DNA of 64,000 bases from positions 128,001 to 192,000 of IMG/VR virus record IMGVR_UViG_3300031420_000495. One strand, 5' to 3'. A model generated the notes under the pieces. It was not told the origin of the DNA. It worked only from the letters and a program-made list of their open reading frames with translations, and did no database searches. Shown one piece after another: positions 1 through 56,205 of the stretch (positions are counted from its first letter, which is position 1; each line of letters starts with the position of its first letter). This DNA is from a virus (lineage: Duplodnaviria; Caudoviricetes). The translations under genes and the position numbers were made by a program.

Positions 1-1043
1 CCACGGAACGCACGCATGATTTCCTTGAAGTTCTCATGGTCGCGGTGTGCTGCGGCCATGTCTTTTGCGGTGCGGTCGAAACCGCGGCCGAGTCCTGCCA
101 GCTCTTCGACATACGAACGCGTACGCTCGATTTCGCCGAAGATGATCTTCTCGACGTCGATGATCGGCTGGATGTCGCGGCCGGTCATGGCGAACGCTGC
201 TTTCAGGTCGTCCGACTGGTCGGCCAACACTGCGCGAGCGACGTCACGCCAACGAGTGAACGTGACCGAGTGATGCAGGTCGCAGTACCACTTCGTCTTG
301 GCCTTCCACATCTGGCCGTCGTCCGTTTGCAGGATCACACCTTCGATGCCCTCGCGAGTCAGTTGCATCTCGCGAATTTTCTCGTAGTCGACCACACCAT
401 CAGTGCTGAACTGGTCGATGATGTTCGGCACGACCGGGAACGGGCACATGTTCGATTCTTGATCCATGCCGCTTGCCGGCGTGTATGCACCGGTGATGTT
501 GTTGCGGACTTGCAACAGCGTCAGCTCGTCTTTCTCGTACAGCAGCACGATCGGGAACCGCGGCGACGTCCACTCGAAAGTCGGCGTCCAGCCGTAGCTC
601 AGCAGGTTGCGGACCCAGTTCACACGACGCTCGTTCTTGTACAAGAACTCGGTTGCAGCGATTGCTTCGGCCGAGTCGAACGTCTTCTTCGTCTTGCCAA
701 CGATCTTGCCGTTGTCATTGACGAACGTAATCATCGAGCCGTCACGCTTGTCCATAATCCGCGTGATCTTGTCCCACGGAATCAGGTGCGGCTGCGTGTC
801 TTCGTTCTCGCCGATGTTCTGGAACTTGTGCAGCGTACGCGATACGACTTTGCCGCTCGCGGTATCGAACGTGATGCCACGGCATTCCTTCCACCACTCT
901 TCGTGCTCGCCGCGGAACGTGTCCTCGTCCTGCAGCATGTAGCAGACGATGGTCGTACCGTTCGGTTGCTCTTGCACACGGAACTGCGGGTTGTCCTGAA
1001 CGAACGGTAACAGGTCGTTGATGTGTCGGATTACTGGAAACAT
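1..1043 (-). CDS. RNA ligase, T4 Rnl1 family (3' end runs off window)
   Basis: Not in ORF track; translated by hand from ATG at 1043: MFPVIRHINDLL...KECRGITFD...TLHKFQNIGE...IMDKRDGSMI. This gives ECRG, KFxN and the KxDGS adenylation motif typical of Rnl1. Confidence 0.88.
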   Translation of the reverse strand, partial: MFPVIRHINDLLPFVQDNPQFRVQEQPNGTTIVCYMLQDEDTFRGEHEEWWKECRGITFDTASGKVVSRTLHKFQNIGENEDTQPHLIPWDKITRIMDKRDGSMITFVNDNGKIVGKTKKTFDSAEAIAATEFLYKNERRVNWVRNLLSYGWTPTFEWTSPRFPIVLLYEKDELTLLQVRNNITGAYTPASGMDQESNMCPFPVVPNIIDQFSTDGVVDYEKIREMQLTREGIEGVILQTDDGQMWKAKTKWYCDLHHSVTFTRWRDVARAVLADQSDDLKAAFAMTGRDIQPIIDVEKIIFGEIERTRSYVEELAGLGRGFDRTAKDMAAAHRDHENFKEIMRAFR

Positions 1044-3395: not shown

Positions 3396-3934
3396 TATGC
3401 GGCCGGTGTTTGTTGAGCAGCAACCCACTCAAGATAAGTTTGCGGCCAACCAGTACTGAAGTCGTAGTCCATTGGCGTTTCGTCATCCAAAATCATGTGC
3501 TGACGGTGATATTCAGCTTGCGCGAAAATCTTCTGGTCTTGTGCAATCGTGCCCTGGAAAATCTGCGATGCAAGTGTTGGTGTCATTGCAACAAATGTGC
3601 CTTGCATGGTTTTCCACATGATGCCAGGAGGCATGTTCGCACCGAGCATTGTGAGTGCAATTTGTTGAATGCGTGACGTGTCATCGGAGTGGAACCAGTT
3701 GTCTCCGATATGTACACCGCCAGCTTTTCGTTTGTCACGCTCTGCTTGGATGCGAAGCCACATTTCAGTGCGTGCTACATCAAGTGCAACTGAGTCCAAA
3801 GTTTCTTTAGAAGGCAACGGTGCGCTGTCTTCTTCGATCCTGATATTCTCATAGATGCCTGGGTCACCGATAATATGGGCTTGTACAGTTGGAAACTTTG
3901 AACCCAAAATTTCCATGTAGTCTTGAACGATCAT
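3395..3934 (-). CDS. DUF4376-like tail fibre assembly-associated protein
   Basis: WFHSDDTSRIQ...WKTMQGTFVAMT pattern; directly downstream of a large fibre gene. Confidence 0.65.
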   Translation of the reverse strand: MIVQDYMEILGSKFPTVQAHIIGDPGIYENIRIEEDSAPLPSKETLDSVALDVARTEMWLRIQAERDKRKAGGVHIGDNWFHSDDTSRIQQIALTMLGANMPPGIMWKTMQGTFVAMTPTLASQIFQGTIAQDQKIFAQAEYHRQHMILDDETPMDYDFSTGWPQTYLEWVAAQQTPAA

Positions 3935-3942
3935 GATGCTCC

Positions 3943-43689: not shown

Positions 43690-44593
43690 CTGTATCTCGA
43701 TATTGTTCCAGCTCTGGTGGAACTTCAATGCCCTGCTCTTTCAAGTCGGCCATTGTGTTTTTGAATATGATGGCTGCGTCTTTCCGTTTCTTGATCCTAT
43801 TTATGATCTGCTCGACGGACATGATGTCCTTCGCTTTCACGCCAGGACCAAACATCAACGCAGCGGCTTTGTTGGGATCGCGGATTGGGTCTGGTCGCGG
43901 ATCGAACTTGTGATCCAACCCCATGCGATCGAGTTCAGCTTGAACTTCTTGAGGTGTTGCTTTGGTGAGAGACTTCGTCCGGCCTTTGCCGTCCTTCCGC
44001 ATCTTGCGGACTTTGAAGAGACGTTCAAGACCAACGTCGGCTTTGAACGAGCGACGAACGCGGATAACCGGTTCGCCATCTTCACCGTCGACTTCGAGGT
44101 CTTTGCCTTCTTCCCACACTTGCTTCATCATGTTGACGAGCAGCAATGAGCGCACAGCACCTTTGTATTTCGAACCCGGTGCAGAGTGAAACGCCCACTT
44201 CGCCCATTCAGTCGATGGGACAAGCATCAAGTCGACTTGGACTTTGTTTCCGCCTTCTACCGGAACCGCAAATGAGAAGACGCCTTTGCCGGCGCGGTGG
44301 ATTTCGTCTGTACCTGTGGCTTTGAGCATGCGTTGAACGATTGCTTCTTCGTTGTATTTCGAAGCGTCAACAGCAATGTCAATATCCCCGCTATCGGTCT
44401 TCTGACCGGCGAGGGTATGTGGTGTGGAACCAAGTAGGTTCGTTTTCAAATCATCAATGGGAATGCCGGCGTGCTTCGCCACGAAGGCGAGCGCCGATTT
44501 GATGTCGTTTGCGTTAGCCCGTGTCGTCCCCATATCCTTGGTGGATTTGCCAGACGACTTACGGGCTTCGCAGAGTAATTCTGCTACTTTCAT
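43682..44593 (-). CDS. Pol-beta superfamily nucleotidyltransferase-like protein
   Basis: LLGS...SGDIDIAVD and VQVDLM give the GS-DxD-D triad. Confidence 0.65.
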   Translation of the reverse strand: MKVAELLCEARKSSGKSTKDMGTTRANANDIKSALAFVAKHAGIPIDDLKTNLLGSTPHTLAGQKTDSGDIDIAVDASKYNEEAIVQRMLKATGTDEIHRAGKGVFSFAVPVEGGNKVQVDLMLVPSTEWAKWAFHSAPGSKYKGAVRSLLLVNMMKQVWEEGKDLEVDGEDGEPVIRVRRSFKADVGLERLFKVRKMRKDGKGRTKSLTKATPQEVQAELDRMGLDHKFDPRPDPIRDPNKAAALMFGPGVKAKDIMSVEQIINRIKKRKDAAIIFKNTMADLKEQGIEVPPELEQYRDTDD

Positions 44594-44820
44594 TGTTCCC
44601 CTAGATGCTCCTCGATTGCGTACCGGACGTTGAACGAATCTTCGTCTGCACAACCATCGTGGCGTTCGAACGCCTTGACCAGATCGAGGATCATCTTCAT
44701 CGCGTTCGGATTCAGATCATCGAGCGGTTCGCCGTCCATGATTTGTTCAAGTTGTTCTTGAACCGACCAGCCAAGTGCGGAATACATCTTGGCCAGCTTC
44801 AGAAATGCTTCGAAATCCAT
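44590..44820 (-). CDS. hypothetical protein (76 aa)
   Basis: MDFEAF start, TAATG coupling. Confidence 0.65.
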   Translation of the reverse strand: MDFEAFLKLAKMYSALGWSVQEQLEQIMDGEPLDDLNPNAMKMILDLVKAFERHDGCADEDSFNVRYAIEEHLGEQ

Positions 44821-45044
44821 TATCCCATTTCCAGTTCGCGAGTGACCAGCTCGCATTCGACTTGAAGGACCAGGTCGTCGATGTCGGCAAAGCCGTCGAC
44901 TTCGTAACCGAGCACGGCAGAACCCGCCATGGCCGTCAGCCGCTGAATGTCGAATCCTTCATAGGTATTGTTGACGATGTTCTGTGCTGCCACTGCTTCG
45001 AGGAAAGCTTGGGCAAAATCTTCCAGTTCTTGCAGGCGGCTCAT
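44820..45044 (-). CDS. hypothetical protein (74 aa)
   Basis: MSRLQELEDF start, ATGA coupling. Confidence 0.65.
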   Translation of the reverse strand: MSRLQELEDFAQAFLEAVAAQNIVNNTYEGFDIQRLTAMAGSAVLGYEVDGFADIDDLVLQVECELVTRELEMG

Positions 45045-45250
45045 GCGGTCGTGATCCCTTGAAATTCGACGTTGTTGTACATCCACAGCAGGACTTCCTG
45101 CGCGTTTTCGATCTGATAGCCACGCTGGGCACATGCGCCCAGACAGTAGTCGAGCGTGGCATTGACCAGCAGCTCTTCGCCATTGTAGATCGAAGCGTAC
45201 ACGATGCCCGGATGACGGACGCTCAATTTTGGTTTGACAGTTACCAGCAT
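45041..45250 (-). CDS. hypothetical protein (69 aa)
   Basis: YNGEELLVNATLDY pattern; coupled. Confidence 0.65.
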   Translation of the reverse strand: MLVTVKPKLSVRHPGIVYASIYNGEELLVNATLDYCLGACAQRGYQIENAQEVLLWMYNNVEFQGITTA

Positions 45251-45252
45251 GA

Positions 45253-45501
45253 TTAAAACCCCAGTCCAAGTTCTTCAGCGATGCGCACGTTCACCCAATC
45301 GATTGGGTCGCCATCCTTTGCGGTGGCGGTGCCGTACGGAATTTCGCCGGTGTTGCAGTAGTGATTAAAAAGAATTTCGTAAACTTCGTCTTCGACTTCG
45401 CAACCGAGTTCCAGCAGAGTCACGGTCTGATTGGCTTGTTCGACGGTCAGGCCGAATTCAGTCACGAGGCGGGTGATGATCTGTGCGGTAGTGTTGGTCA
45501 T
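45253..45501 (-). CDS. hypothetical early protein
   Basis: HYCNTGEIPYGTA..DGDP..WV; first gene after early promoter. Confidence 0.7.
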   Translation of the reverse strand: MTNTTAQIITRLVTEFGLTVEQANQTVTLLELGCEVEDEVYEILFNHYCNTGEIPYGTATAKDGDPIDWVNVRIAEELGLGF

Positions 45502-45532
45502 TTTGTTTGCTCTGTTCGTTTGGTATGGAAGC

Positions 45533-45561
45533 ATTATACCCAGCCATCCGAAAATAGCACA
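45533..45561 (-). promoter_or_regulatory. early-type promoter TGTGCT-N17-TATAAT
   Basis: tgtgct attttcggatggctggg tataat. Confidence 0.7.
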
Positions 45562-45590
45562 GCCTTATTTACGAAAGAGGGGCGCTTCCA

Positions 45591-45597
45591 ATAAATA
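45591..45597 (+). promoter_or_regulatory. late promoter box ATAAATA
   Basis: Upstream of fibre B, divergent from the early promoter. Confidence 0.6.
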
Positions 45598-45630
45598 CTC
45601 ATACGAATTTACCTAACTGGAGCACGCACA

Positions 45631-48600
45631 ATGCTTATTGACGGCCTTAACCTTGCCGAGGGCAGTACCCTCACCAATGCAATCATCGCTAGTGGAACTG
45701 AGTTTCCGCCAGCAACTCAAGGTGAACTCTTCTTCCGAAGCGACCTCGGAATGCTTCACGTCTTCAATGGTCAAACATGGCTTGGCATCGGCAATAGCTC
45801 TGCAATGCTCGACGATCATCCTGGTTCATATTACCTCGATCTTGGCAACGCAACAGGAATTTTGTCAGTTGCACAGGGCGGTACTGGCGTTGCTACTCTC
45901 GCAATGCTTCGCACCAACCTTGGACTGGATAACGTTCAGCCACTCGACGGCGACCTGACTGCAATCGCAGGTATTCAAACCAGTGCAGGTTTGCTGCGTA
46001 AGACTGCGGAAAATACTTGGGAACTTGACACAGCTACGTATCTGACTGACAACCAACCGATTACGGTGACGGGTGACGTTACTGGTGCAGGTGCAACCGC
46101 CATCAATACCACGCTGGCAAATGTCGGTGCAGCTGGAACGTATCGTTCGGTAACGACTGATGTAAAGGGCCGCGTAATCTCTGGCTCGAATCCAACCACG
46201 CTCGAAGGGTACGGCATCACTGACGCACAGCCGCTCGATGGCGATCTGACTTCAATCGCAGGTCTGACTGGTAGTTCTGGTCTGCCACGCAAAGTCGGTG
46301 CAAACTCCTGGGTTCTGGACACAGCATCCTACATCACTGGCAATCAAACAATCACCATTACTGGTGACGTGACCGGCTCCGGAACAACCGCGATTCCGCT
46401 GACTCTTGCTTCTGTGGGCGCACCTGGTACATACAAGTCGATTACAACCGACTCCAAAGGTCGTGTCACTGCTGGTACAAATCCAACAACACTCGCTGGT
46501 TTTGGCATCACTGATGCCCTGAAGAAAACTGACGACACGTTCACTGGCACATTGACGATGGTGGGTGACATCGTACCTGCGACAAACGTCACATACAATC
46601 TCGGTTCGCCGACGAAGATGTGGCGAGACATTTATGTCGGCCCAGGTTCGATTTACATGAACGGCAAAAAGATTCTGGAAGAAGTTGCTTCGACCGTTAT
46701 CTTCTCGTCCGATGACAATCAGAACGTTCGTATCGAAACGACTGGTACTGGTAATCTCGAACTGCAATCCGCAGTTGGTGGTGCGATCCAGATCAAGGGT
46801 ACTTTGTCGATTGCTTCTGGCAAACGCATCGTCGACTCCGCGGGTATTCAAGTTGAATTCGCAGACGACATCGCCATGAACGGCAACAAGGTTACTGGCC
46901 TTGCAGCTCCGACCGTTACGACTGACGCAGCAAACAAAGCATACGTTGACAATGCAACTCTTGCTGATACGACACTCGTTCGCACGACTGGCAATCAAAG
47001 TATTGCAGGCCAAAAGACCTTCACTGGTGACGTCATCCTCGCAGGCAATCTGACAATCTCTGGTACGACGACAACCGTCAATTCCCAGACTGTTCTGCTT
47101 GCTGACAACATTCTCGAACTGAACTCTGACTTCACCGCTGGTACGCCATCGGAAAATGCTGGTATTCAAATTCGTCGTGGCGACCTTGGCATTGCTCAGT
47201 TCCTGTGGGACGAAGCAAACGACCGCTTTACGATGATGACTGGTGCAAACGCACCTCTGCCGCTTTACACTGGGGCATCGATCACGGCTGGTTCGTTCGT
47301 TGGCCCACTGACTGGTAATGCGTCGACAGCAACTAAGCTTGCGACAGCACGCACAATCAACGGTGCATCTTTCGATGGTACGGCAAACATCAGCTACACA
47401 ACTGACGCAGTTGTGGAAGGTGCAACCAATCTGTACTTCACGAACACACGTGCTGCTGCAGCTGCTCCGGTTCAGTCGGTCTTTGGTCGCACTGGTGCTA
47501 TTGCGCTGACAAGTGCAGATGTGACTGGCGCATTGGCTTATACGCCTGCAAATAAAGCTGGTGACACGTTCACTGGTAATATCACTGCTCCGACTTTTAT
47601 CGGCGCGTTGACTGGCAACGCATCGACTGCTACGACTTTGCAAACAGCACGCACAATCAACGGTGTTTCATTCAACGGATCAGCAAACATTTCCTTCACA
47701 ACATCAGCAGTTGCTGAAGGTACAAATCTGTATCACACCACAGCTCGCGCAGCTGCCGCTGCACCTGTGCAATCCGTATTTGGACGTACAGGCGCGGTCA
47801 CAATGGCAAGTGCTGATGTGACGACTGCTCTTGGCTTTACACCAGCAAACATTGCTTCTCCGACTTTCACTGGCACGGTGACTGCACCGACGTTTGTGGG
47901 TGCACTTAGCGGTAATGCATCAACCGCAACCAAACTGGCAACTGCTCGCACGATCAATGGCGTGTCTTTTGACGGTTCAGCGAACATCACCTTGCCTGCG
48001 GCAACAAGCGCTGAAGTAATTTCGTCGCTTGGATACGCGCCTACACGTCAGGGTGGATTTACTTCGGGTGCACAACAATCCGTAAGTGCTATCACAACTC
48101 TTCGAAATGTAGCCAATCCTTCTATCGACGTTGGCTATGCAACTGGTGTTCGTTTCCGTTTTGGTTCGCAGAACGATGCCGATACAACCAACGGCTACGC
48201 AGACATCATCGACCTGTCGACCTATGTTGATTCCACAGGCGGTGGTGTCAACGCGTTGTATTTCAACAAGTCAAGCCAATTGATGACCCACAAGTTTGCA
48301 CCGGCCGGTGCAACTACATGGGTAGCTAAGACAGTTGCGTACACCGACAGTAATATCACTGGTAATGCTGCATCGGCTACCAAGCTGGCAACAGCTCGCA
48401 CGATCAACGGTGTTGCATTCGACGGTACAGCGAATATTACAGTTGCTGATGCTACGAAACTTCCGTTGACAGGCGGTACGCTCACAGGCTCGTTGACCAT
48501 GGCAAATGGTCGAGACATCATTCTTGCTGCAACTACCGGTGGCACAGATATGGGCGACATCGTTTTCCAAAATGGTGATGGCACAGAAAAGCACCGTCTG

Positions 48601-50256
48601 TACGACGGCACAACAGGTCTGTACTATCGCCTAAACGGTGGTACATCATATTTGCTCGTTCACGCAGGTAACGTCGGAACGTACAATGCTGGTTCAGCAA
48701 CGAAACTTGCAACCGCGCGTAACATCAATGGTGTTCCGTTCGACGGTTCTGCCGACATCACGATCACAGCTAGTGCGTCGACTGTACCATGGACAGGCGT
48801 CACAGGCAAGCCAACTCGCACAACGTGGAATGCTGACACTACTGCGAATGATTTCGTTGCGGGTCAACTGACATGGCGTTACTACGGCAACAGCCATACC
48901 ATCTTTGACGCAGGCGCCGGCGTTTCACCAACTGGCGCGACAATCGATAAAAACAATCCGCAGTACGCTTGGGCAACGCAATATCCTACACTGATGGGTT
49001 GGAATGGTACAGCAACCTACGGTGTCCGCGTTGACACTTCGCGTTATGCAGAAAATACCACGTGGGGTGGTGTTGCTAACAAGCCAACAACAGTTGCTGG
49101 CTATGGTATCACTGACGCAGTTGGTAGTGGCGGAACATTTGCTGCTGCGAACGTTGATACGATCGTCAACAGCGGTTACTACAATCAGCAGAACAGTGGC
49201 GACAGTCACACGGTAATTGTTCACAATGCGCAAGGCTCGACAGGTACTGTTCAACAGCGATTCCACTATATGGGTGGTTATGAATTCCGCAACCGCACGG
49301 ATAATGCTAACTGGTCTGCTTGGAAAACAGTTGTAACGAACTTGAACGTTGCGGGCTATGTGGCGGGTAACCCTGCAGCTTCTGCTCCAAAACTGACTGG
49401 CCCCGCATACACCAACGGTACTGACGGATGGTTCCGTAACACTGGGCAAACTGGTTGGTTCAATGATAGCTACTCAACTGGTTTGTATCCTGTTGGCGCG
49501 CAAGCTATTGGTACATACAACAATTCGCGTTTGCTGAGTAACCAGGGAACACCGGCATTGCCGTCGTTCTCCTTCGGTAACGACGCAGATACGGGTATCT
49601 ACTCGCCAAGCGATGGTATTCTTGGATTCAGTGTTAATGCGGTGCAGCGAGCGACGCTCACAGGCGATTTTTCCCTGACAGGCGGTGGTTTCTTCTCGAA
49701 CGGTCTCAGCTCTTTCAAGAACAATAAGGGTAGTGGCGTATATTCGGGTAACACCGCAAACTTTACCTACTTCTATTCGGATGACTCTGGCGCGGCAGGT
49801 TTCTCGTTCCACCGTGGTGGTGCGTATGCTGTCAACATGGCTCTTGATCCAGACAACGTCATCCGTATTGGCGGTTGGTCTGCTTCTGCAAACCGATTCG
49901 CGTTTGATATGGGTGGTAACTTCACTGCTGCTGGTGACGTTGCTGCGTTCTCTGACGAACGTCGTAAAACCAACTGGCGCGGCATCGACGATGACTTCGT
50001 TCAACGTTGGGCAACCGTCAAGCACGGTGTGTACGAACGTATCGACGAAGGCAATCGCGACCAACTCGGTCTCGGTGCTCAGTCGGTCCAGGCGATCCTG
50101 CCGAACGCAGTCCATGAGGACTCGGAAGGTTATCTGTCTCTGAACTACGGTGCTGCGGCTGGTGTTGCTACCGTTAAGCTGGCTCAGAAAGTTGTTGATC
50201 TTGAAGCTAAGATCGCGATGCTTGAAGCGAAACTCGAAGCACTCATGGGGAAATAA
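45631..50256 (+). CDS. tail fibre B (1541 aa) with S74 chaperone
   Basis: Multiple ATKLATARTINGVxFDGSANI repeats, PTTLxGYGITDA, GDVAAFSDERRKTNW. Confidence 0.9.
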   Translation: MLIDGLNLAEGSTLTNAIIASGTEFPPATQGELFFRSDLGMLHVFNGQTWLGIGNSSAMLDDHPGSYYLDLGNATGILSVAQGGTGVATLAMLRTNLGLDNVQPLDGDLTAIAGIQTSAGLLRKTAENTWELDTATYLTDNQPITVTGDVTGAGATAINTTLANVGAAGTYRSVTTDVKGRVISGSNPTTLEGYGITDAQPLDGDLTSIAGLTGSSGLPRKVGANSWVLDTASYITGNQTITITGDVTGSGTTAIPLTLASVGAPGTYKSITTDSKGRVTAGTNPTTLAGFGITDALKKTDDTFTGTLTMVGDIVPATNVTYNLGSPTKMWRDIYVGPGSIYMNGKKILEEVASTVIFSSDDNQNVRIETTGTGNLELQSAVGGAIQIKGTLSIASGKRIVDSAGIQVEFADDIAMNGNKVTGLAAPTVTTDAANKAYVDNATLADTTLVRTTGNQSIAGQKTFTGDVILAGNLTISGTTTTVNSQTVLLADNILELNSDFTAGTPSENAGIQIRRGDLGIAQFLWDEANDRFTMMTGANAPLPLYTGASITAGSFVGPLTGNASTATKLATARTINGASFDGTANISYTTDAVVEGATNLYFTNTRAAAAAPVQSVFGRTGAIALTSADVTGALAYTPANKAGDTFTGNITAPTFIGALTGNASTATTLQTARTINGVSFNGSANISFTTSAVAEGTNLYHTTARAAAAAPVQSVFGRTGAVTMASADVTTALGFTPANIASPTFTGTVTAPTFVGALSGNASTATKLATARTINGVSFDGSANITLPAATSAEVISSLGYAPTRQGGFTSGAQQSVSAITTLRNVANPSIDVGYATGVRFRFGSQNDADTTNGYADIIDLSTYVDSTGGGVNALYFNKSSQLMTHKFAPAGATTWVAKTVAYTDSNITGNAASATKLATARTINGVAFDGTANITVADATKLPLTGGTLTGSLTMANGRDIILAATTGGTDMGDIVFQNGDGTEKHRLYDGTTGLYYRLNGGTSYLLVHAGNVGTYNAGSATKLATARNINGVPFDGSADITITASASTVPWTGVTGKPTRTTWNADTTANDFVAGQLTWRYYGNSHTIFDAGAGVSPTGATIDKNNPQYAWATQYPTLMGWNGTATYGVRVDTSRYAENTTWGGVANKPTTVAGYGITDAVGSGGTFAAANVDTIVNSGYYNQQNSGDSHTVIVHNAQGSTGTVQQRFHYMGGYEFRNRTDNANWSAWKTVVTNLNVAGYVAGNPAASAPKLTGPAYTNGTDGWFRNTGQTGWFNDSYSTGLYPVGAQAIGTYNNSRLLSNQGTPALPSFSFGNDADTGIYSPSDGILGFSVNAVQRATLTGDFSLTGGGFFSNGLSSFKNNKGSGVYSGNTANFTYFYSDDSGAAGFSFHRGGAYAVNMALDPDNVIRIGGWSASANRFAFDMGGNFTAAGDVAAFSDERRKTNWRGIDDDFVQRWATVKHGVYERIDEGNRDQLGLGAQSVQAILPNAVHEDSEGYLSLNYGAAAGVATVKLAQKVVDLEAKIAMLEAKLEALMGK

Positions 50257-50257
50257 C

Positions 50258-50893
50258 ATGGCACTTCAATCGAGCGGCACAATTTACGTGTCGCAGATCA
50301 ACCCGTACATCGGGCTGTCTGCGACAGCGAATATCTGGTTCAGCCACCAGGCGATGAGAAATCTCGCAGGCGTTTCGAGCGGTCTTATCAAGATGTCGAA
50401 CTTCTATGGTAAGCCAGTGAGCACAGGCGGATCAACCGGCGACACCGGTGGCGGTGGCGGACAATGCGTCGCTGTATCTTCGTTCTTGCCAGATGGAAAA
50501 CTTGCTGGTGAAATTCAGGTTGGCGACACGATGATGCTTGCTGACGAGACAACTCTCGATCCAAGCACTGGCGTAGTTACAATGTCTGTTCCGAGTGTTC
50601 AACCAGGCTATCGTTTCCGTACATCATCGGGCGCAAGTCTTGTGTGCTCGGATTCTGCACCGATTCCAACAAAGAATAACGGATACAAAACGCCGATCGA
50701 TCTTCTCGGCCAATTGGTTCCTGTTCGTCATGATGCATACGACGGATACATTTTTGCTTGGGAACTCGTTGAGTCCGTCGAAAGCGTAGGCGACATCGAA
50801 GTTCAGATGATAACCGTAGGCGACAAGTGCTTCTGGGCTGGCGAGCAACCTGGCGCATTTATTCTTCACCACAATCTGAAACAAATCGCTTGA
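50258..50893 (+). CDS. fibre-tip-like protein with C-terminal Hint (intein-like) domain
   Basis: N-terminal MALQSSGTIxxSQIN...LAG.SSG.I.MSNFYGK, Gly linker, then C70 (CVAVSSFL) ... VQMITVG..CFWAG ... ILHHN. Confidence 0.8.
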   Translation: MALQSSGTIYVSQINPYIGLSATANIWFSHQAMRNLAGVSSGLIKMSNFYGKPVSTGGSTGDTGGGGGQCVAVSSFLPDGKLAGEIQVGDTMMLADETTLDPSTGVVTMSVPSVQPGYRFRTSSGASLVCSDSAPIPTKNNGYKTPIDLLGQLVPVRHDAYDGYIFAWELVESVESVGDIEVQMITVGDKCFWAGEQPGAFILHHNLKQIA

Positions 50894-50907
50894 AGCAGCA
50901 CTTGACG

Positions 50908-50913
50908 TAAATA
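50908..50913 (+). promoter_or_regulatory. late promoter box TAAATA
   Basis: Upstream of fibre C. Confidence 0.5.
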
Positions 50914-50937
50914 GCAGGTCACCTTTAGGAATAGACT

Positions 50938-53900
50938 ATGCTTATTGACCGTCCACAAGTAGTAGAAGGTAGTTCCATTCAGAACGCAACAGTTCCGAGT
51001 GGACCTACCTTTCCAACATTGCCGAATGCTGGCGAACTCTTTTATCTCACCACCGCGTCTGGTTCAAATCCAGTTGGCCTGTATTCGTACTCTGGCGGAG
51101 GATGGGAAGCATCTGCAAAGAATGCAACACTCGTTGCGCACATGGCCGATGACGATCGCCACCTCACGGCAGCGCAAAACACATTGATCGATGCTATCAC
51201 GGTCACAGCAGCGGACATCAACTCGATTCCAAGCGTCACGACTCGCGTTACGACTACCGAAACGAATCTCGCAAATCACATCGCGGATTTGACCAAACAC
51301 TTGACTCCAGCGCAGAACACGTTCTTGGATGCGCTGAATCTTCCGACACTGACTGCAGCCCACGTGAACTTCGTGACGGGCGTAACGTCGAATATTCAAA
51401 GTCAGCTTGACGCAATCAAGGCGGTTGACTCTCAGCAATCATCTGACATCAGCAATCTGCAATCGACCCAGGCATCTGGACAATCGTCGTTGCAATCCCA
51501 GTTGAATGCCCACGTCGCCGACGACACACGTCACTTGACTGCTGCACAGAATACTTTGCTTGACGGCATTACCGTTGACTTCACGCAGATCAATCGTCTC
51601 ACTGGGCTTACTTCGTATCTCGATACGTTTACAACTGGCCAAACACTTGTCACACGTTTGACTGGGCTCGATGCGACCAAGCTGAACATTGACGGCACGA
51701 AATCGATGACTGGTGACCTGAATATGGGTTCCAGGAGAATCACGAATCTTGCAACACCAACTGTAGCAAGCGATGCCGCAACCAAAGATTACGTTGACAG
51801 CTTTGTTCAGGGTCTGCACTGGGTAGGTTCTGTCTGGGTCGCAACGACTCAGAACATCGCGCTTTCTGGTTTGCAAACAATTGACAGCATTGCACTCGCT
51901 GCAGGCGATCGTGTGCTTGTCAAGAACCAAACGACTGCTTCGCAAAACGGTATCTGGGTTGTGGCTGCAGGTGCATGGACTCGTGCAAACGACTTCAACT
52001 CAGCGATCGAAATCAACAACTCAGCTGTGTTCGTTCTGCAAGGTGCAACACAGGGCAAATCAACTTGGGTTCAGCTCAGCACTGTTACGACTGTCGCAAC
52101 TGATCCGATCACTTGGTCCGCATTCTCTGGTCCAGTCATCAACAGCGCTGGTGCAGGTATCTCGCTCGGAACTGGTGGACAGGTTTCTGTTGTCGAAGGT
52201 GCAGGTCTGACATTCAGCGGAAACGCTATTGTTGCTGACGTGCATCCGTCCGGTGGTCTGATGACGACCCTGGATAACGCAACAGCTTCGACCGATGCAG
52301 CAGCCGAACTTGCACTGACAAACGTCGGTACGCCAGGAACATATCGTTCGGTAACAACCGATGCGAAAGGCCGTGTCACGTCCGGATCAAATCCAACGGT
52401 ATCGATCGCGCAAGGCGGTACTGGTGCAATAACTGGTCCAGCAGCTTTGACTTCACTCGGCGCTTTGCCAATTGCTGGCGGAACAATGACGGGTCCGTTG
52501 CAGGTCAAGAGCAACACACTCCTTGGTTCTAACTCAGTTGGAACATTTAACGGTTCCGGCTCAGCGTTGACAGTTGTGCACGTCGGATCAGGTACCGAGT
52601 ACGGTATCACGATCGCGCCGACGACGTCGACGTCAATCACGAATACAATCAATTTCCTCAGCTCTGCGTCGACACCGTCTGCACCTGTAGCAGTTGGTGC
52701 TATTCAATTGCTCGTCAACAATTCTGGTCTGAATTTGTCTGGCCCATGGTCTGTCAACGGTAGTTCGATTTATTCTACGGCCGGCGGTGAAATGACTGGC
52801 CAGCCAATCGTTCGCGCGTCAGACAGCGGAATGATTCTGCAGTCGCGTAATACTTCCCCAACGACTATACCATATCAGTTTTACATTCAGCACAATCTGG
52901 GCAATGTCGTCATCGGCAACGAACGTGGCGGCGTTCAGCTGAACGGTAATGCATCGACGGCAAGCTCTGTGCCATGGTCCGGTATCACAGCGCGTCCAAC
53001 ACGGACGAACTGGGCAGATAATGCCGGCAATGACATTATCGCTGGACAGTTGACATGGCGTAACTACAATAACAATCACACGGTCTTTGATGCGTCATCT
53101 GGCGTTAGTCCAACTGGAGCTACAATCGACAGGATCAATCCGTCTGTCGGCTGGACTGAGACGTACCCAACTCTCATGGGTTGGAATGGTCAGCAAACGT
53201 ATGGTGTGCGTGTTGACACATGCCGCGTTTCAGATATTACGAATCAGACAACTATTGGTCGCGTCGGTACTCTTGGCCCTGGTTATGGTTCATACGGTTC
53301 GATCAACGTAGCTGGCAATACAAACGGCTGGGCAGGTATTTCGTTTTCAGACTATAACGCAACGTTCATGGTCAATGGCTCACAGTCAGGTGTTTATCGA
53401 AACAACAATTCGTGGGATTGGAAGTTCGATTCAAACGGCGTGCTTTCGACTGGTACAGTACCAGGCACAAGCGTAACGGGCACGGTTGCTAGTGCAACAC
53501 TCGCTGCAAAAGCATCTACACTTGTGTTGGGCGGCGGCACAGGGAATGGCGCGGTATTCAATTGGTCCGGACAAGGTGGACAACCTACCTGGTTGTGGGG
53601 CGGTAGCGATGGCGTCAATATGTACGTTTACAATCCGTCAAACTTCTCTGTTGCAAGCGCAGGTTCGGCCGGTTCGGCAGCAAGACTTACTGGTCCAGCA
53701 AACGTCAATGGTACTGACGGATGGTTCCGTTCAACAGGTGCAGCTGGCTGGTATAACTCGGATTATGCGGTTGGTATCTACTCGTCAGAAGCTGGTAACG
53801 TTCGCACGTACAATAACTCCCGTTTCATTAGCAATCAAGGTAGTGCAACGCTTCCAGCGTTTTCATTTACAAATGATACTGACACAGGTTTTTATTCTGA

Positions 53901-54648
53901 AAGTGATGGATACCTAAACATCACAGTGAACGGCACATATCGCGGTCGTTTCGACAGTGCTGGTAATCTTGGTGTGAACGGCAACTTTTACGGCGGTGGC
54001 GCTGGACTGACTGGTACAGCTGGCAGCTTGACATCGGGTAACACCAACTCTATTGCTGGTGCTATCGGAACTGGTTACACTTGGTCTGGCATTCAAGTCT
54101 TTAAGACGAATAAGGGAAGTGGCGTATATTCGGGCAACACAAACTCGTTCACTCAGTTCTACTCGGACGACTCAGGTGCAGCAGGTTTCTCGTTCCACCG
54201 AGGTGGCGCGTATGCAGTCAACATGGCTCTTGATCCAGACAATATCATTCGCATCGGTGGATGGTCCGCATCAGGCGGTCGCTTCGCATTCGACATGGGT
54301 GGTAACTTCACAGCAGCGGGTGACGTCACTGCTTTCTCTGACGAACGTCTGAAAACGAACTGGCGCGACATCACAACCAGTTTCGTTGATAAGTGGGCAA
54401 ACGTGAAACACGGTGTGTTCGAACGTATAGATACAGGAAACACTCAGATCGGTCTCTCGGCCCAGGCAGTTCAAGCAGTCGTGCCTGAGGCAGTTGCAGA
54501 AGACAAAGATGGAATGCTGTCTGTAAACTACGGTGCTGTATCGGCAGTCGCAACGGTGAAGCTTGCCGAAGAAGTAATCGAGCTTCGTAAACAACTTCAA
54601 ATGCAGGGCGAGCTGATCAAGCTGCTCATGGAAAAACAAGGACTCTAA
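50938..54648 (+). CDS. tail fibre C (1236 aa) with S74 chaperone
   Basis: GLQTIDSIALAAGDRVLVKNQ domain; blocks shared with fibres A and B; GDVTAFSDERLKTNW. Confidence 0.9.
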   Translation: MLIDRPQVVEGSSIQNATVPSGPTFPTLPNAGELFYLTTASGSNPVGLYSYSGGGWEASAKNATLVAHMADDDRHLTAAQNTLIDAITVTAADINSIPSVTTRVTTTETNLANHIADLTKHLTPAQNTFLDALNLPTLTAAHVNFVTGVTSNIQSQLDAIKAVDSQQSSDISNLQSTQASGQSSLQSQLNAHVADDTRHLTAAQNTLLDGITVDFTQINRLTGLTSYLDTFTTGQTLVTRLTGLDATKLNIDGTKSMTGDLNMGSRRITNLATPTVASDAATKDYVDSFVQGLHWVGSVWVATTQNIALSGLQTIDSIALAAGDRVLVKNQTTASQNGIWVVAAGAWTRANDFNSAIEINNSAVFVLQGATQGKSTWVQLSTVTTVATDPITWSAFSGPVINSAGAGISLGTGGQVSVVEGAGLTFSGNAIVADVHPSGGLMTTLDNATASTDAAAELALTNVGTPGTYRSVTTDAKGRVTSGSNPTVSIAQGGTGAITGPAALTSLGALPIAGGTMTGPLQVKSNTLLGSNSVGTFNGSGSALTVVHVGSGTEYGITIAPTTSTSITNTINFLSSASTPSAPVAVGAIQLLVNNSGLNLSGPWSVNGSSIYSTAGGEMTGQPIVRASDSGMILQSRNTSPTTIPYQFYIQHNLGNVVIGNERGGVQLNGNASTASSVPWSGITARPTRTNWADNAGNDIIAGQLTWRNYNNNHTVFDASSGVSPTGATIDRINPSVGWTETYPTLMGWNGQQTYGVRVDTCRVSDITNQTTIGRVGTLGPGYGSYGSINVAGNTNGWAGISFSDYNATFMVNGSQSGVYRNNNSWDWKFDSNGVLSTGTVPGTSVTGTVASATLAAKASTLVLGGGTGNGAVFNWSGQGGQPTWLWGGSDGVNMYVYNPSNFSVASAGSAGSAARLTGPANVNGTDGWFRSTGAAGWYNSDYAVGIYSSEAGNVRTYNNSRFISNQGSATLPAFSFTNDTDTGFYSESDGYLNITVNGTYRGRFDSAGNLGVNGNFYGGGAGLTGTAGSLTSGNTNSIAGAIGTGYTWSGIQVFKTNKGSGVYSGNTNSFTQFYSDDSGAAGFSFHRGGAYAVNMALDPDNIIRIGGWSASGGRFAFDMGGNFTAAGDVTAFSDERLKTNWRDITTSFVDKWANVKHGVFERIDTGNTQIGLSAQAVQAVVPEAVAEDKDGMLSVNYGAVSAVATVKLAEEVIELRKQLQMQGELIKLLMEKQGL

Positions 54649-55314
54649 ATGAACACAATCAAGAACATTACCGTTACGCCTGATGAAACCGGTAATCTTT
54701 CCGTACTCAAATATACTGCGTCATTTACGGATGACAACGGGAAAGAGTTTACAAGGGATATGCGATTCTCAACTATTCTGCCTCCGCCAACAGGTGACGA
54801 GTATTCGCCTCAGGAACTTCAGACAGCTGCAATGAATCATGCAAACTCGAACGGTGTTTTTGACCAGTTGAGGTCCGAAGCTATCATATCAATGACACCG
54901 GTCTTCGATCCTGCATCGGTGCCTACGCCGCCACCGATGCCAGAAGATCAACGTCGCGCCAACATGATTTACAATGTGGACATGCGCGTTGCCGAAGTCA
55001 CCGGAACATTTACTCGATTCCAGATGGAATATGAGTCTCGTGAAAAAGCGGCGATGGCATACCGTGATGCTGGTTATAACGGTGACCCGACATTGTGGAT
55101 CACAGCTTTTGCAGACGCGGCTGGCATGGACTACCGTTCGGCAACTGATCTGATTCTCCAACAAGCATCCGTTCTTCGCGATGCTGTCATGCAGCTCGGT
55201 GCAGCGCGTATGAACAAGTACAAGATTCAGTCAGCGCCTGACATCGAAACAGCTCTGGCAGAATACAACTCGATCATGGCCGAAATCGAAAGAATCGCTT
55301 CGACGTTGCCATAA
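54649..55314 (+). CDS. tail fibre assembly/chaperone-like protein
   Basis: Position after the fibre; EYESREKAAMAY...WITAFADAAG pattern. Confidence 0.6.
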   Translation: MNTIKNITVTPDETGNLSVLKYTASFTDDNGKEFTRDMRFSTILPPPTGDEYSPQELQTAAMNHANSNGVFDQLRSEAIISMTPVFDPASVPTPPPMPEDQRRANMIYNVDMRVAEVTGTFTRFQMEYESREKAAMAYRDAGYNGDPTLWITAFADAAGMDYRSATDLILQQASVLRDAVMQLGAARMNKYKIQSAPDIETALAEYNSIMAEIERIASTLP

Positions 55315-55335
55315 AGAAGCTTTCGCAGGGAAATA

Positions 55336-55869
55336 ATGACGACTCCAACTGGACAAATTAGAGCATCAGATGTGAACGCTGAATTGCAGAGAACCGGCAG
55401 TCAGCGTATCAATCTGAATGACACAGTAGTAAGAACGCTTGCTGGCGTCGGCGGAAGTGGAACTACGATTAGTCTTAGCACGCTTCGTGGTAAGAGTAGC
55501 TTTTCTGGATTCAGGGTGAACTTGGTTCTTACGCAAAACCCGATATATTACGCCTATGTTCGACCGGGATATATTGGCACCACAAGTGATTCGGCAGGTA
55601 CTGGGTCACTATCGCCAGACGCTATTGGAAATATCAGGCCTACCTATATTTCATCCACCATCAGTGATGGTGGATTTGGTTTTTATCTAATGGGCATTTT
55701 ACCACAAAACGTTTTTAATTCAGTGAACATTGATGGAAAATATACGCTGTATTCATCAAACTGCTCTTTTTATCAGTTGAACTCGCCTGGACAAGAACAG
55801 ACAACGTTTTACTGGCCAACTGCCATGCTGAACCTAGGACCAGGACAACACACACTGTTGTTTGCATAA
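55336..55869 (+). CDS. fibre-tip/adhesin-like protein
   Basis: N-terminal GQIRASDVNAEL...LNDTVVRTLAG..G.ISLSTLRGKS, related to 50258; AT-rich, aromatic/Gly-rich C-terminus. Confidence 0.7.
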   Translation: MTTPTGQIRASDVNAELQRTGSQRINLNDTVVRTLAGVGGSGTTISLSTLRGKSSFSGFRVNLVLTQNPIYYAYVRPGYIGTTSDSAGTGSLSPDAIGNIRPTYISSTISDGGFGFYLMGILPQNVFNSVNIDGKYTLYSSNCSFYQLNSPGQEQTTFYWPTAMLNLGPGQHTLLFA

Positions 55870-55870
55870 T

Positions 55871-55896
55871 GAAAAAGGGACCTCACGGTCCCTTTT
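55871..55896. terminator. intrinsic terminator, identical to 41499-41524
   Basis: gaaaaagggacc-tcac-ggtccctttt. Confidence 0.85.
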
Positions 55897-55918
55897 CTTA
55901 TTTGTCAGCTAATGCTAT
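55891..55918. repeat. 28-bp element, perfect inverted copy of 24323-24350
   Basis: ccttttcttatttgtcagctaatgctat. Confidence 0.9.
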
Positions 55919-56205
55919 TATTTCTGCGTTTGCTTGATACCTGCCGGATTCAGTGTGTAATCGCTGAATGTGTAGCAGTCGTCGATGAGACGCACGAGTT
56001 GGCGAGCCTGTTCTTCCGTGAGGAAGTTCGGGTCTTCAACTTCAACTGAGCCATCGAGCGCACCGTAGTATTCCATGTCGACCAAGCGGACACGGTTGTC
56101 TCCGTCATTTACGACGAGCCATTTTTCTCCCGGCGAACCCTCAATAGTGGAACCAGCCCCAAAATTCTTGAGGCTGATGTCCGAGGGCTTTGAATTCCTG
56201 AACAT
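55918..56205 (-). CDS. hypothetical protein (95 aa)
   Basis: AAGGAG RBS; downstream of spoVR. Confidence 0.7.
   Translation of the reverse strand: MFRNSKPSDISLKNFGAGSTIEGSPGEKWLVVNDGDNRVRLVDMEYYGALDGSVEVEDPNFLTEEQARQLVRLIDDCYTFSDYTLNPAGIKQTQK

What the first reader, a model, noticed from the sequence alone, without database searches (positions are those of the whole stretch)
50258..50893. Hint-domain-capped tail-fibre tip protein
Seen: directly after S74-fibre B is a 211-aa protein made of a ~52-aa tip-adaptor-like N-domain, a Gly linker (GGSTGDTGGGGGQ) and a Hint domain starting at Cys70 and ending HHN-LKQIA. The +1 residue is Leu, not C/S/T, and block B lacks its His (CSDSAP). The equivalent protein after fibre C (55336) has an ordinary AT-rich receptor-binding-like C-domain. 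Established: Hint domains form an N-terminal thioester at the X-Cys bond; Hedgehog and BIL domains use it for cleavage or ligation to a nucleophile, not splicing. Inference: the tip may self-cleave during assembly, or present a reactive thioester that attaches covalently to a lipid, a host surface amine or another virion protein. This would be an unusual adsorption or maturation mechanism.
Basis: partly seen in the sequence, partly recalled or inferred. Interest (0 to 1): 0.75.

Follow-up and report, generated by a model that had tools for sequence, protein, structure and literature searches.

The report
Self-processing Hint cap on fibre-tip protein
A small jumbo-phage protein predicted to cap the end of a tail fibre consists of little more than a docking peptide, a glycine linker and a genuine intein-like (Hint) domain from a large family that the Pfam, NCBIfam and PHROGs libraries tested here do not recognise. 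The domain probably cuts itself off, but no cleavage has been shown.

Summary
Window 50258-50893 (+) encodes a 211-aa protein that starts 1 nt after the stop of a 1541-aa S74 fibre. It has a ~55-aa adaptor, the linker GGSTGDTGGGGGQ, and a 137-aa domain from Cys70 to His-His-Asn206, followed by LKQIA.

Pfam, NCBIfam and PHROGs do not see the domain. AlphaFold2 models it at pLDDT ~97, and it superposes on mini-inteins and Hedgehog HhC (Z 18, rmsd 1.9 A). Cys70 falls on intein residue 1 and Asn206 on the terminal Asn.

The domain belongs to a family of about 986 clusters (50% identity). Members usually sit at the extreme C-terminus, behind a Gly-rich linker, of phage tail-tip or fibre proteins and of secreted bacterial proteins. 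The family signature is G|CV...CSxxAP...HHN-x-K. The block-B His is Ala family-wide and +1 is never a regular nucleophile, so it is not a splicing intein.

The same phage has four adaptor proteins, and three end in Hint domains of two different lineages. A complex model docks the adaptor, as a monomer, on the three C-termini that S74 cleavage exposes on fibre B (0.88 against 0.01 for the best control).

Self-cleavage or thioester chemistry is inferred, not shown. This scan has reported Hint caps on phage fibres before, on other DNA. New here are the cargo-less adaptor-Hint fusion and the predicted docking mode.

The parts
45631..50256 (+). Fibre B, 1541 aa. It carries a C-terminal Peptidase_S74 intramolecular chaperone. 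The expected autocleavage is after Ser1441 in ...GDVAAFS|DERRK.
   Evidence: ORF. Pfam Peptidase_S74 at aa 1441-1495 (E 1.2e-07) and BppL_N. PHROGs tail-fibre families. C-terminal sequence.
50258..50893 (+). P0001: a 211-aa adaptor-linker-Hint protein. This is the finding itself.
   Evidence: No Pfam, NCBIfam or PHROGs family matches it.
50258..50425 (+). N-terminal adaptor, aa 1-56. It holds three short segments (6-12, 23-29, 42-47) predicted to contact the three C-termini of the processed fibre trimer.
   Evidence: Alignment A2 with P0166, P0170, P0008 and P0168. Four copies in the genome. Complex model scores 0.88 against 0.01 for the best control. The same motif lies in or beside annotated tail-fibre genes in other phages.
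50426..50464 (+). Gly-rich linker GGSTGDTGGGGGQ, aa 57-69. Gln69 is the -1 residue of the predicted scissile bond.
   Evidence: Half of the family members (77 of 151) have at least 5 Gly in the 10 residues before Cys1.
50465..50875 (+). Hint-fold domain, aa 70-206. Key residues: Cys70 (50465-50467); block-B-like CSDSAP at 130-135 (50645-50662); Met184 (50807-50809) where the family mostly has His; His204-His205-Asn206 (50867-50875).
   Evidence: AF2 pLDDT about 97. Foldseek against PDB, E about 1e-6, to mini-inteins, BIL and Hedgehog. VIA-align Z 18.3, rmsd 1.9 A, 70..206 against 1..440. AFDB and ESM Atlas matches to Hint/PT-HINT. Conservation.
50876..50893 (+). C-terminal tail LKQIA plus the stop codon. 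+1 is Leu and +2 is Lys; the family consensus is HHN-[LIMVK]-K.
   Evidence: The +2 Lys is present in 123 of 149 domains.
50938..54648 (+). Fibre C, 1236 aa, with S74. Its last 80 mature residues are 72/80 identical to those of fibre B, so it offers the same docking end.
54649..55314 (+). Tail-fibre assembly protein, 221 aa.
   Evidence: phrog_8258, E 2.5e-26.
55336..55869 (+). P0166, 177 aa. It has the same adaptor followed by an unrelated, AT-richer C-terminal domain with no Hint.
   Evidence: phrog_26817.

Best explanation
P0001 is a small protein that caps the distal end of tail fibre B, and possibly also fibre C.

Proposed sequence of events:
1. Fibre B trimerises, and its S74 chaperone cuts itself off after Ser1441.
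2. One copy of P0001 docks on the three newly exposed C-termini (GDVAAFS). It uses three short segments of its ~55-aa adaptor, giving a trimer-to-monomer cap like gp38 on gp37.
3. A glycine linker holds a 137-aa Hint domain at the distal end.

The Hint domain belongs to a large uncharacterised family. It keeps the N-terminal Cys and the C-terminal His-Asn of inteins, but it has no +1 nucleophile and no block-B His.

I take the Hint domain to be a self-removing cap. Cys70 would attack the Gln69 carbonyl (N-to-S acyl shift). The thioester would then be resolved by water or a thiol, releasing the Hint domain and leaving the 69-aa adaptor on the fibre. Asn206 cyclisation may also clip off LKQIA.

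Status of each step:
- Shown: the gene, the fold, family membership and residue conservation.
- Supported in silico only: the docking.
- Inferred: the cleavage chemistry and its timing.
For: Fold:
- AF2 gives pLDDT about 97 over residues 70-206.
- VIA-align gives Z 18.3, rmsd 1.9 A and 128-131 aligned residues. Model 70..206 aligns to RecA intein 1..440, Hedgehog 258..401 and gp41-1 -1..125.
- Foldseek and ESM Atlas structure matches, TM 0.78-0.83 to PT-HINT/Intein_splicing/Hint_2 clusters, agree.

Catalytic candidates under selection (158 aligned domains):
- Cys1 97%; His-His-Asn 97-99%; Ser131, Ala134 and Pro135 98-99%. P0001 keeps all of these.
- All 32 distinct phage-borne copies keep CSxxAP and the terminal His-Asn (HHN in most).

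Cap architecture:
- The domain ends a median of 17 aa, and often 4-9 aa, before the protein's end.
- It follows a Gly-rich linker, with -1 = Gly in 54%.
- It sits on GpJ-type tail tips and other phage proteins that Pfam does not name, and on PKD and RHS proteins.

Same phage:
- P0170 is adaptor + Gly-rich ALK/gp38-type domain + G10 linker + the same Hint (63% identical).
- P0173 is adaptor + middle domain + a different Hint that keeps TxxH and ends THN.
- Two Hint lineages at the same position argue for a function of the Hint chemistry, not of one particular sequence.

Docking: ipSAE 0.88 in three runs against 0.01 for the best of three controls. The mark was reached by 51 of 78 solved complexes and 2 of 108 mismatched pairs. 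Contacts are adaptor 6-12, 23-29 and 42-47 with residues 235-241 of each fibre chain, which are the last residues before the S74 site.
Against: - No experiment bears on this protein. No paper on such caps was found in the searched library.
- The block-B His that normally activates the N-terminal scissile bond is Ala, both here and family-wide.
- P0001 has Met184 where 84% of the family have His. If that His compensates for the missing block-B His, this copy may be slow or inactive.
- The -1 residue is Gln (3 of 151 in the family) rather than Gly.
- After cleavage only a 69-aa adaptor with no recognisable binding domain would remain, which is an odd end product for a fibre tip.
- The complex test differs from its calibration (a trimer plus one chain, not pairs of single chains) and cannot say which of the four adaptor proteins binds which fibre.
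- I could not inspect model coordinates. The geometry of Cys70, Cys130 and His204/205 is therefore unverified.
Confidence: 0.5

Rival explanations
1. Reactive-thioester reading. The Hint domain is not merely discarded. The Gln69 thioester is passed to a specific nucleophile. Candidates are a lysine of the fibre or another virion protein, an amine or hydroxyl on the host surface, or the alpha-amine of its own tail after Asn206 cyclisation (BIL-type aminolytic 'splicing' that would join LKQIA to Gln69).
For: - Structural neighbours include Hedgehog HhC, which transfers to cholesterol (1at0, Z 17.9), and Tetrahymena BIL2, which conjugates to lysine (6y75, Z 16.7).
- The conserved +2 Lys (123 of 149) and the hydrophobic +1 after HHN suggest the tail has a role.
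- The Gly-rich C-terminus before Cys1 resembles ubiquitin-like donors.
- The cap sits at the very tip of host-recognition proteins, for example GpJ-type proteins.
Against: - No acceptor is identified.
- There is no sterol- or adduct-recognition region after the Hint, only 5 aa.
- Virions assemble in a thiol-rich cytoplasm, where an exposed thioester would be expected to be lost before release.
- The family also caps exported bacteriocin-like proteins with no obvious common acceptor.
Confidence: 0.15
2. Non-cleaving reading. In P0001 the Hint fold is kept on the virion as the distal domain of the tip, either as a binding or spacer module or as a bulky stopper that enforces one adaptor per trimer. 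The catalytic-looking residues would be conserved for folding or for a redox switch.
For: - P0001 has no other distal domain, so the Hint is its only candidate payload.
- Three substitutions weaken the expected N-terminal activation: Met184 in place of the usual His, Gln at -1, and Ala in place of the block-B His.
- Cys130, which is 98% conserved and lies next to block B, could lock Cys70 in a disulfide outside the cell (inference).
Against: - Cys1 and HHN are 97-99% conserved across about a thousand clusters, and always at domain boundaries. That is the signature of junction chemistry rather than of a binding surface.
- The surfaces are not hypervariable as in receptor-binding domains. P0001 and P0170 Hints are 63% identical although their adaptors are only 29% identical.
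- The paralogue P0170 already has a gp38-like binding domain upstream of its Hint.
Confidence: 0.22
3. Decaying remnant. P0001 is a deletion derivative of a P0170-like adhesin that lost its binding domain, and it has no function of its own.
For: The architecture equals P0170 minus its ~280-aa Gly-rich domain. It also has the Met184 substitution.
Against: - The ORF is intact and tightly coupled to fibre B, with a plausible RBS.
- All the most conserved family residues are retained.
- Adaptor identity to P0170 is only 29%, so any deletion is old and the gene has been maintained since.
- The adaptor is confidently predicted to dock on the fibre.
Confidence: 0.08

Closest known systems
A-type bacterial intein-like (BIL) domains (Amitai 2003; Dassa 2004, from my own knowledge; structure: C. 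thermocellum BIL, PDB 2lwy)
   Same: Mini Hint fold (Z 16.1, rmsd 2.0 A, 129 residues). N-terminal Cys, C-terminal His-Asn, and no +1 Cys/Ser/Thr. Found in secreted or variable proteins, not in conserved enzymes. Expected chemistry is N- and C-terminal cleavage rather than canonical splicing.
   Different: The block-B TxxH is SxxA here (Ala 99%). The family has its own invariant motifs (CSxxAP, QHI, CFWAG, HHN-x-K) and matches no Hint-type Pfam HMM even at E<=10. It sits at the extreme C-terminus as a cap.
Hedgehog / Hog C-terminal autoprocessing domain (PDB 1at0, 6tyy)
   Same: A Hint domain placed C-terminal to the cargo, with the scissile bond usually Gly|Cys. Cleavage leaves the N-terminal cargo as the product. 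Z 17.9-18.2, with model 70..207 against 258..401.
   Different: There is no sterol/adduct-recognition region, only 5 aa after the Hint. A terminal His-Asn is present, which Hedgehog lacks. The TxxH His is absent. No lipid acceptor is known.
Class 1 mini-inteins (Mtu RecA, Ssp/Npu DnaB, gp41-1)
   Same: These are the best structural matches (Z 17.6-18.3). Cys70 aligns with residue 1 and Asn206 with the terminal Asn.
   Different: There is no C-extein and no +1 nucleophile, no insertion into a conserved host protein, no homing endonuclease, and no block-B His. It is not an intein.
Polymorphic-toxin pre-toxin Hint (PT-HINT, PF07591)
   Same: Nearest predicted-structure clusters (TM 0.78-0.83). 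Occurs in secreted and RHS-type proteins. Presumed to act as an autoproteolytic release module.
   Different: The PF07591 HMM does not match. There is usually no toxin domain downstream; the Hint is itself the end of the protein.
Peptidase_S74 intramolecular chaperone of phage fibres and tailspikes
   Same: A functional analogue: a C-terminal module of phage fibres that removes itself after assembly. It is present on the neighbouring fibres B and C.
   Different: Unrelated fold and chemistry (a Ser-Lys dyad within a trimer).
gp38 adhesin on gp37 of phage S16/T2 (PDB 6F45; PMC6851490)
   Same: A separate small protein encoded after the fibre gene. It caps a homotrimeric fibre as a monomer through three pseudo-equivalent contacts. 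The paralogue P0170 carries a Gly-rich ALK/gp38-type domain.
   Different: No sequence similarity. The S16 attachment uses three Trp residues on helices, whereas here three short strand-like segments are predicted to bind the fibre C-termini. gp38 has no Hint domain.

Membership tests
Hint (Hedgehog/intein) fold superfamily | Compact, all-beta, pseudo-two-fold Hint fold of about 130-150 residues | tested here: met
   AF2 pLDDT about 97 for residues 70-206. Z 18.3, rmsd 1.9 A against the RecA mini-intein and Z 17.9 against Hedgehog 1at0. Foldseek E about 1e-6. AFDB and Atlas matches to Hint clusters.
Hint (Hedgehog/intein) fold superfamily | Nucleophile (Cys/Ser/Thr) as the first residue of the domain | tested here: met
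   Cys70 aligns with residue 1 of several inteins and with Cys258 of Hedgehog. It is 97% conserved in the family.
Hint (Hedgehog/intein) fold superfamily | Recognition by a curated Hint HMM (PF01079, PF07591, PF13403, PF14890, PF05203, PF14623) | tested here: not met
   No Hint family is reported for P0001 or for 24 + 37 family members, even at E<=10. There is also no NCBIfam hit.
Inteins (protein splicing) | +1 Cys/Ser/Thr on a C-extein that is ligated to the N-extein | tested here: not met
   +1 is Leu and the tail is 5 aa. The family's +1 residue is mostly L/I/K/M/V/A.
Inteins (protein splicing) | Block B TxxH | tested here: not met
   S131-D-S-A134. Ser and Ala are each 99% conserved in the family. 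The assignment to block B rests on position in the fold and on the sequence pattern; I have no residue-level superposition.
Inteins (protein splicing) | C-terminal His-Asn | tested here: met
   H205-N206 aligns with the terminal Asn of inteins. Conserved at 97%.
Inteins (protein splicing) | Insertion into a conserved site of a host protein | tested here: not met
   The domain lies at the C-terminal end of many unrelated proteins.
A-type BIL domains | Cys1 plus C-terminal His-Asn, with no +1 nucleophile, in secreted or variable proteins | tested here: met
   Contexts: C39/ABC-exported proteins, RHS, PKD and phage tail proteins.
A-type BIL domains | Sequence membership (BIL-A block motifs, including TxxH) | tested here: inconclusive
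   No BIL profile was available. TxxH is absent. Structural similarity to 2lwy is Z 16.1.
A-type BIL domains | Demonstrated auto-cleavage | not testable with these tools
   This needs protein expression and mass spectrometry.
Hedgehog/Hog autoprocessing | Hint followed by a sterol/adduct-recognition region that recruits the acceptor | tested here: not met
   Only LKQIA follows Asn206.
gp38-type fibre-tip adhesin (functional class) | A monomer that caps the C-terminal end of a homotrimeric fibre | tested here: inconclusive
   The complex model scores 0.88 against 0.01 for the best control, with three adaptor segments on the three fibre C-termini. This is a prediction only. There is no sequence relation to gp38.

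The most novel reading that the evidence does not exclude
The Hint caps on phage tip proteins are covalent-coupling devices, not throw-away pro-domains. The thioester formed at the Gly-rich end of the tip protein would survive until it meets a nucleophile. That nucleophile could be a lysine of the fibre, which would lock the monomeric cap onto the trimer, or an amine or hydroxyl of the host envelope, which would make adsorption chemically irreversible. The conserved HHN-x-Lys tail and Cys130 would act as a relay or a redox gate.
Probability: 0.12. Interest if true: 0.9.

Novelty: new variant of a known kind. Interest (0 to 1): 0.6.

Why it matters
Hint domains are known for protein splicing, Hedgehog lipidation and toxin release. 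Their use as end-caps on phage host-recognition proteins has, as far as my literature searches reach, not been described.

Here one jumbo phage puts Hint domains of two lineages on three of its four fibre-tip proteins. One of them, P0001, is reduced to docking peptide + linker + Hint. That makes P0001 a minimal, easily expressed test object for asking what these caps do.

If they simply self-cleave, they are a second self-removing maturation module of phage fibres, alongside S74. If they transfer the thioester, this would be a new mode of virion assembly or adsorption, and a natural ligation tag.

The same family caps bacteriocin-like proteins exported by C39 ABC transporters, so the answer would carry over to bacterial secreted proteins.

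The predicted adaptor contact with S74-exposed C-termini also offers a concrete rule for how small tip proteins are mounted on S74 fibres.

Tried and rejected
- Curated libraries. Pfam, NCBIfam and PHROGs scans of P0001, its halves and 61 family members gave no Hint family. Weak DUF6679, PDZ and PUA hits were treated as noise.
- PDB by sequence. No hit for P0001. The family profile gave only a PDZ-like 2kl1 match at E 0.014, judged spurious.
- Profile-profile comparison. The family against the second Hint type of this phage aligned only block A (E 0.0077, probability 5%) and block G (E 0.002, probability 14%). This is too weak to map block B.
- PF26745. This label is precomputed on two homologues but is not in the local Pfam copy, so I could not resolve it.
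- Megablast of window 44000-56000 against named phages found nothing.
- A homologue search with the adaptor alone found one extra protein. A search with the P0173 Hint found two.
- The XacN1 virion proteome paper does not mention its Hint-capped ORF231.
- Literature searches for Hint or intein-like domains on tail fibres found no relevant paper.
- In-frame fusion with fibre B was rejected. P0001 is in another frame, and all four paralogues start with Met at the adaptor.
- True intein was rejected: there is no C-extein and no +1 nucleophile.
- No adaptor-Hint fusions were found in 28 IMG/VR loci that carry the cap. There it sits on other tail proteins.

Full report
**1. Observation**

The ORF at window 50258-50893 (+) encodes 211 aa (P0001). 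Its ATG lies one base after the TAA of the 1541-aa ORF 45631-50256, with GGGGA 7 nt upstream.

That upstream ORF is a tail fibre. It matches many PHROGs tail-fibre families and has a C-terminal Peptidase_S74 chaperone at aa 1441-1495.

A second S74 fibre (50938-54648) follows. After it come a tail-fibre assembly protein (54649-55314, phrog_8258) and P0166 (55336-55869). P0166 shares the N-terminal ~55 aa with P0001 but has an unrelated, AT-richer C-terminal part.

**2. The C-terminal domain is a real Hint fold that curated libraries miss**

Pfam, NCBIfam, PHROGs and a sequence search of the PDB give nothing for P0001.

With an alignment of 24 homologues, AlphaFold2 models residues 70-206 at pLDDT about 97 as an all-beta domain. 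Residues 1-65 are not modelled with confidence.

Structure comparisons agree on the fold:
- Foldseek against the PDB returns mini-inteins, BIL domains and Hedgehog HhC at E about 1e-6.
- VIA-align gives Z 18.3, rmsd 1.9 A over 128-131 residues.
- Model 70..206 matches residues 1..440 of the Mtu RecA mini-intein (first Cys to last Asn) and 258..401 of Hedgehog; model 68..206 matches -1..125 of gp41-1.
- AFDB clusters and the ESM Atlas model agree, with TM 0.78-0.83 to PT-HINT, Intein_splicing and Hint_2 clusters.

So Cys70 occupies the position of intein residue 1 and Asn206 that of the terminal Asn.

**3. The family**

A profile search of 1.84 billion cluster representatives finds 986 clusters at E<=0.001 and 633 at E<=1e-10.

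The domain nearly always lies at or near the C-terminus:
- The median tail after HHN is 17 aa, and 61 of 149 tails are 10 aa or shorter.
- It usually follows a Gly-rich linker. The -1 residue is Gly in 54%, and 77 of 151 have at least 5 Gly in the preceding 10 residues.

Conservation over 158 domains:

| Residue | Conservation |
|---|---|
| Cys1 | 97% |
| Cys130 | 98% |
| Ser131 | 99% |
| Ala134 | 99% |
| Pro135 | 98% |
| Phe192 | 99% |
| His204 | 99% |
| His205 | 97% |
| Asn206 | 97% |
| +2 Lys | 80% |

The +1 residue is L/I/K/M/V/A and only rarely Cys, Ser or Thr. The block-B Thr-x-x-His of inteins therefore reads Ser-x-x-Ala throughout the family.

No member matches a Hint Pfam model, even at E<=10.

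P0001 keeps every top-conserved residue except His184 (84% in the family; Met here) and Gly141.

Carriers of the domain are diverse:
- A 2326-aa lambda-J-type tail-tip protein, plus PKD and InlB-repeat surface proteins and an RHS protein.
- Small bacterial proteins with double-glycine leaders, encoded beside Peptidase_C39 ABC exporters and HlyD/AprE-type partners.
- In 28 IMG/VR loci, J-like tail tips and other large phage proteins that I did not name, including tandem pairs of capped genes in jumbo phages. All 32 distinct copies keep CSxxAP and the terminal His-Asn (HHN in most).
- Named phages with more distant copies include Xanthomonas phages XacN1, LucasX, PhiXhv-12, -15 and -16 and RTH11, and Stenotrophomonas phage DLP_6. 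In PhiXhv-15 the capped gene lies in the baseplate/tail-fibre block.

**4. The same phage uses Hint caps repeatedly**

The genome record is a 257-kb virus contig. It holds four proteins with the adaptor: P0001, P0166, P0170 and P0173.

P0170 (493 aa, outside the window) is adaptor + a ~280-aa Gly-rich domain + a G10 linker + the same Hint family + the tail LKEVVDNYAN. Its Hint is 63% identical to that of P0001 and keeps His at position 184. Its Gly-rich domain is nearest to Gly_rich_2 / ALK_LTK_GRD clusters, the polyglycine type also seen in the gp38 adhesin.

P0173 (350 aa) is adaptor + a middle domain + a different Hint. That Hint starts CFAVGT, keeps a canonical T-L-S-H block B and ends THN-ISA. 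It has a weak Pfam Hint_2 match (E 0.012) and Atlas TM 0.80-0.90 to viral and PT-HINT clusters.

Two Hint lineages recruited to the same place on tip proteins argue that the Hint chemistry is what is selected.

**5. The adaptor**

The motif also occurs in or beside annotated tail-fibre genes in Rhizobium, Vibrio and Pseudomonas phages and in Rak2-like jumbo phages.

Fibres B and C share 72 of their last 80 mature residues.

A complex model of three copies of fibre B residues 1300-1441, ending at the S74 cleavage serine, plus P0001 residues 1-69 scored as follows:
- ipSAE 0.88 in all three runs, against 0.01 for the best of three controls.
- The mark was reached by 51 of 78 solved complexes and 2 of 108 mismatched pairs. 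The job is unlike the calibration, which used pairs of single chains.
- Adaptor segments 6-12, 23-29 and 42-47 contact residues 235-241 (GDVAAFS) of each of the three chains.

This predicts a monomeric cap on the termini that S74 autocleavage exposes. The logic is analogous to gp38 on the gp37 trimer of phage S16 (PMC6851490), but with no sequence relation. The model supports binding. It does not show binding, and it cannot tell which paralogue binds which fibre.

**6. Mechanism**

What is shown:
- A Hint fold.
- Retained Cys1 and His-Asn at the exact domain boundaries.
- No +1 nucleophile.
- C-terminal cap architecture behind a flexible Gly linker.

What follows from established Hint chemistry (inteins, BIL domains, Hedgehog) is an N-to-S acyl shift at Gln69-Cys70 giving a thioester, and possibly Asn206 cyclisation.

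My preferred reading (about 0.5) is a self-removing cap. It would be the counterpart, on the monomeric tip protein, of the S74 module on the trimeric fibre. For P0170 this would expose the mature gp38-like adhesin. For P0001 it would leave only the 69-aa adaptor as a blank cap.

Weak points of this reading:
- The block-B His is Ala. Inteins lacking this His are known to compensate with other residues (my own knowledge). Here His184, Arg119, Asp96 and Gln183 are candidates.
- P0001 has Met184 and Gln at -1.

Rival readings:
- Transfer of the thioester to a defined nucleophile, about 0.15. Precedents among the structural neighbours are Hedgehog and Tetrahymena BIL2, and the conserved +2 Lys tail fits.
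- A non-cleaving distal domain, about 0.22.
- A decaying remnant, about 0.08.

**7. Comparison and novelty**

The domain is not an intein. It has no C-extein, no +1 nucleophile, no TxxH and no insertion into a conserved host protein. It works most like A-type BIL domains and the Hedgehog HhC. By fold it is a member of the Hint superfamily, but it forms a separate family that the HMMs do not see.

I found no paper on Hint or intein-like caps on tail fibres or tip proteins in the searched library.

Earlier notes of this scan report 'self-cleaving Hint caps' on phage fibres, pilins and surface proteins in other genomes. The general phenomenon has therefore been seen before in this scan. Those notes are unchecked and are not independent evidence.

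New in this case:
- The minimal adaptor-linker-Hint protein.
- Three capped tip proteins from two Hint lineages in one phage.
- The predicted docking on S74-processed fibre ends.
- The link to C39-exported bacteriocin-like proteins.

**8. Verdict**

This is a new variant of a known kind. Interest is 0.6.

Noticed in passing
L004:1480-2961 (-), roughly G000:C1:209158-210639; outside the window: P0170, 493 aa. It has the same adaptor, a ~280-aa glycine-rich domain nearest to Gly_rich_2 / ALK_LTK_GRD (polyglycine, gp38-adhesin-like) clusters, a G10 linker and the same Hint family (63% identical to P0001, His kept at position 184). It looks like a gp38-like adhesin with a Hint cap.
   Followed up: partly
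L012:1501-2553 (+), G000:C1:249731-250783; outside the window: P0173, 350 aa. It has the same adaptor but a different Hint lineage at its end: it starts CFAVGT, keeps a canonical TLSH block B and ends THN-ISA. It has a weak Pfam Hint_2 match and Atlas TM 0.8-0.9 to viral Hint-capped proteins, including large Laminin_G_3 and fn3 clusters.
   Followed up: partly
L005:8001-8768 and L007:8001-8783 (bacterial contigs): The closest bacterial homologues (P0014, P0006) are 255-260-aa proteins with double-glycine leaders and Gly-rich hydrophobic segments that end in this Hint cap. They are encoded next to a Peptidase_C39 ABC exporter and a HlyD/AprE-type partner. They look like bacteriocin- or microcin-like exported proteins with a Hint cap.
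   Followed up: partly
L017, L019, L020 and L024 (IMG/VR jumbo-phage contigs of 170-350 kb), around positions 3200-6470: These contigs carry tandem pairs of Hint-capped genes (about 615 and about 460 aa). One gene of each pair has Cys-rich flanks: a CxxC-type stretch before Cys1 and a 22-26-aa Cys-rich tail after HHN (IKCCYC...PPNCC). The tail could be a released peptide or a disulfide or metal knot.
   Followed up: no
window 50011-50253 and 54400-54645 (the last ~80 mature residues of fibres B and C lie just upstream of these S74 regions): Fibres B and C are otherwise different, but their last 80 residues before the S74 cleavage site are 72/80 identical. This suggests a shared docking end for the four adaptor proteins.
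   Followed up: partly
proteins P0107, P0111, P0114, P0115, P0119 and P0122 (family members): Some members carry two Hint domains in tandem, separated by only 6-8 residues (HHN-x-K-x-G-x-CV). In four of them (P0111, P0115, P0119, P0122) the second copy lacks the terminal Asn and sits at the protein's end (HHD, HHS or HCG).
   Followed up: no
proteins P0010 and P0012: The source database labels these two homologues with Pfam PF26745.1, which is absent from the Pfam copy available here. I could not tell whether it describes the Hint cap or their N-terminal part.
   Followed up: partly
window 55500-55950: The C-terminal half of P0166 is about 40-41% GC against about 51% in the neighbouring genes. 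This is consistent with a recently acquired or swapped payload domain.
   Followed up: partly
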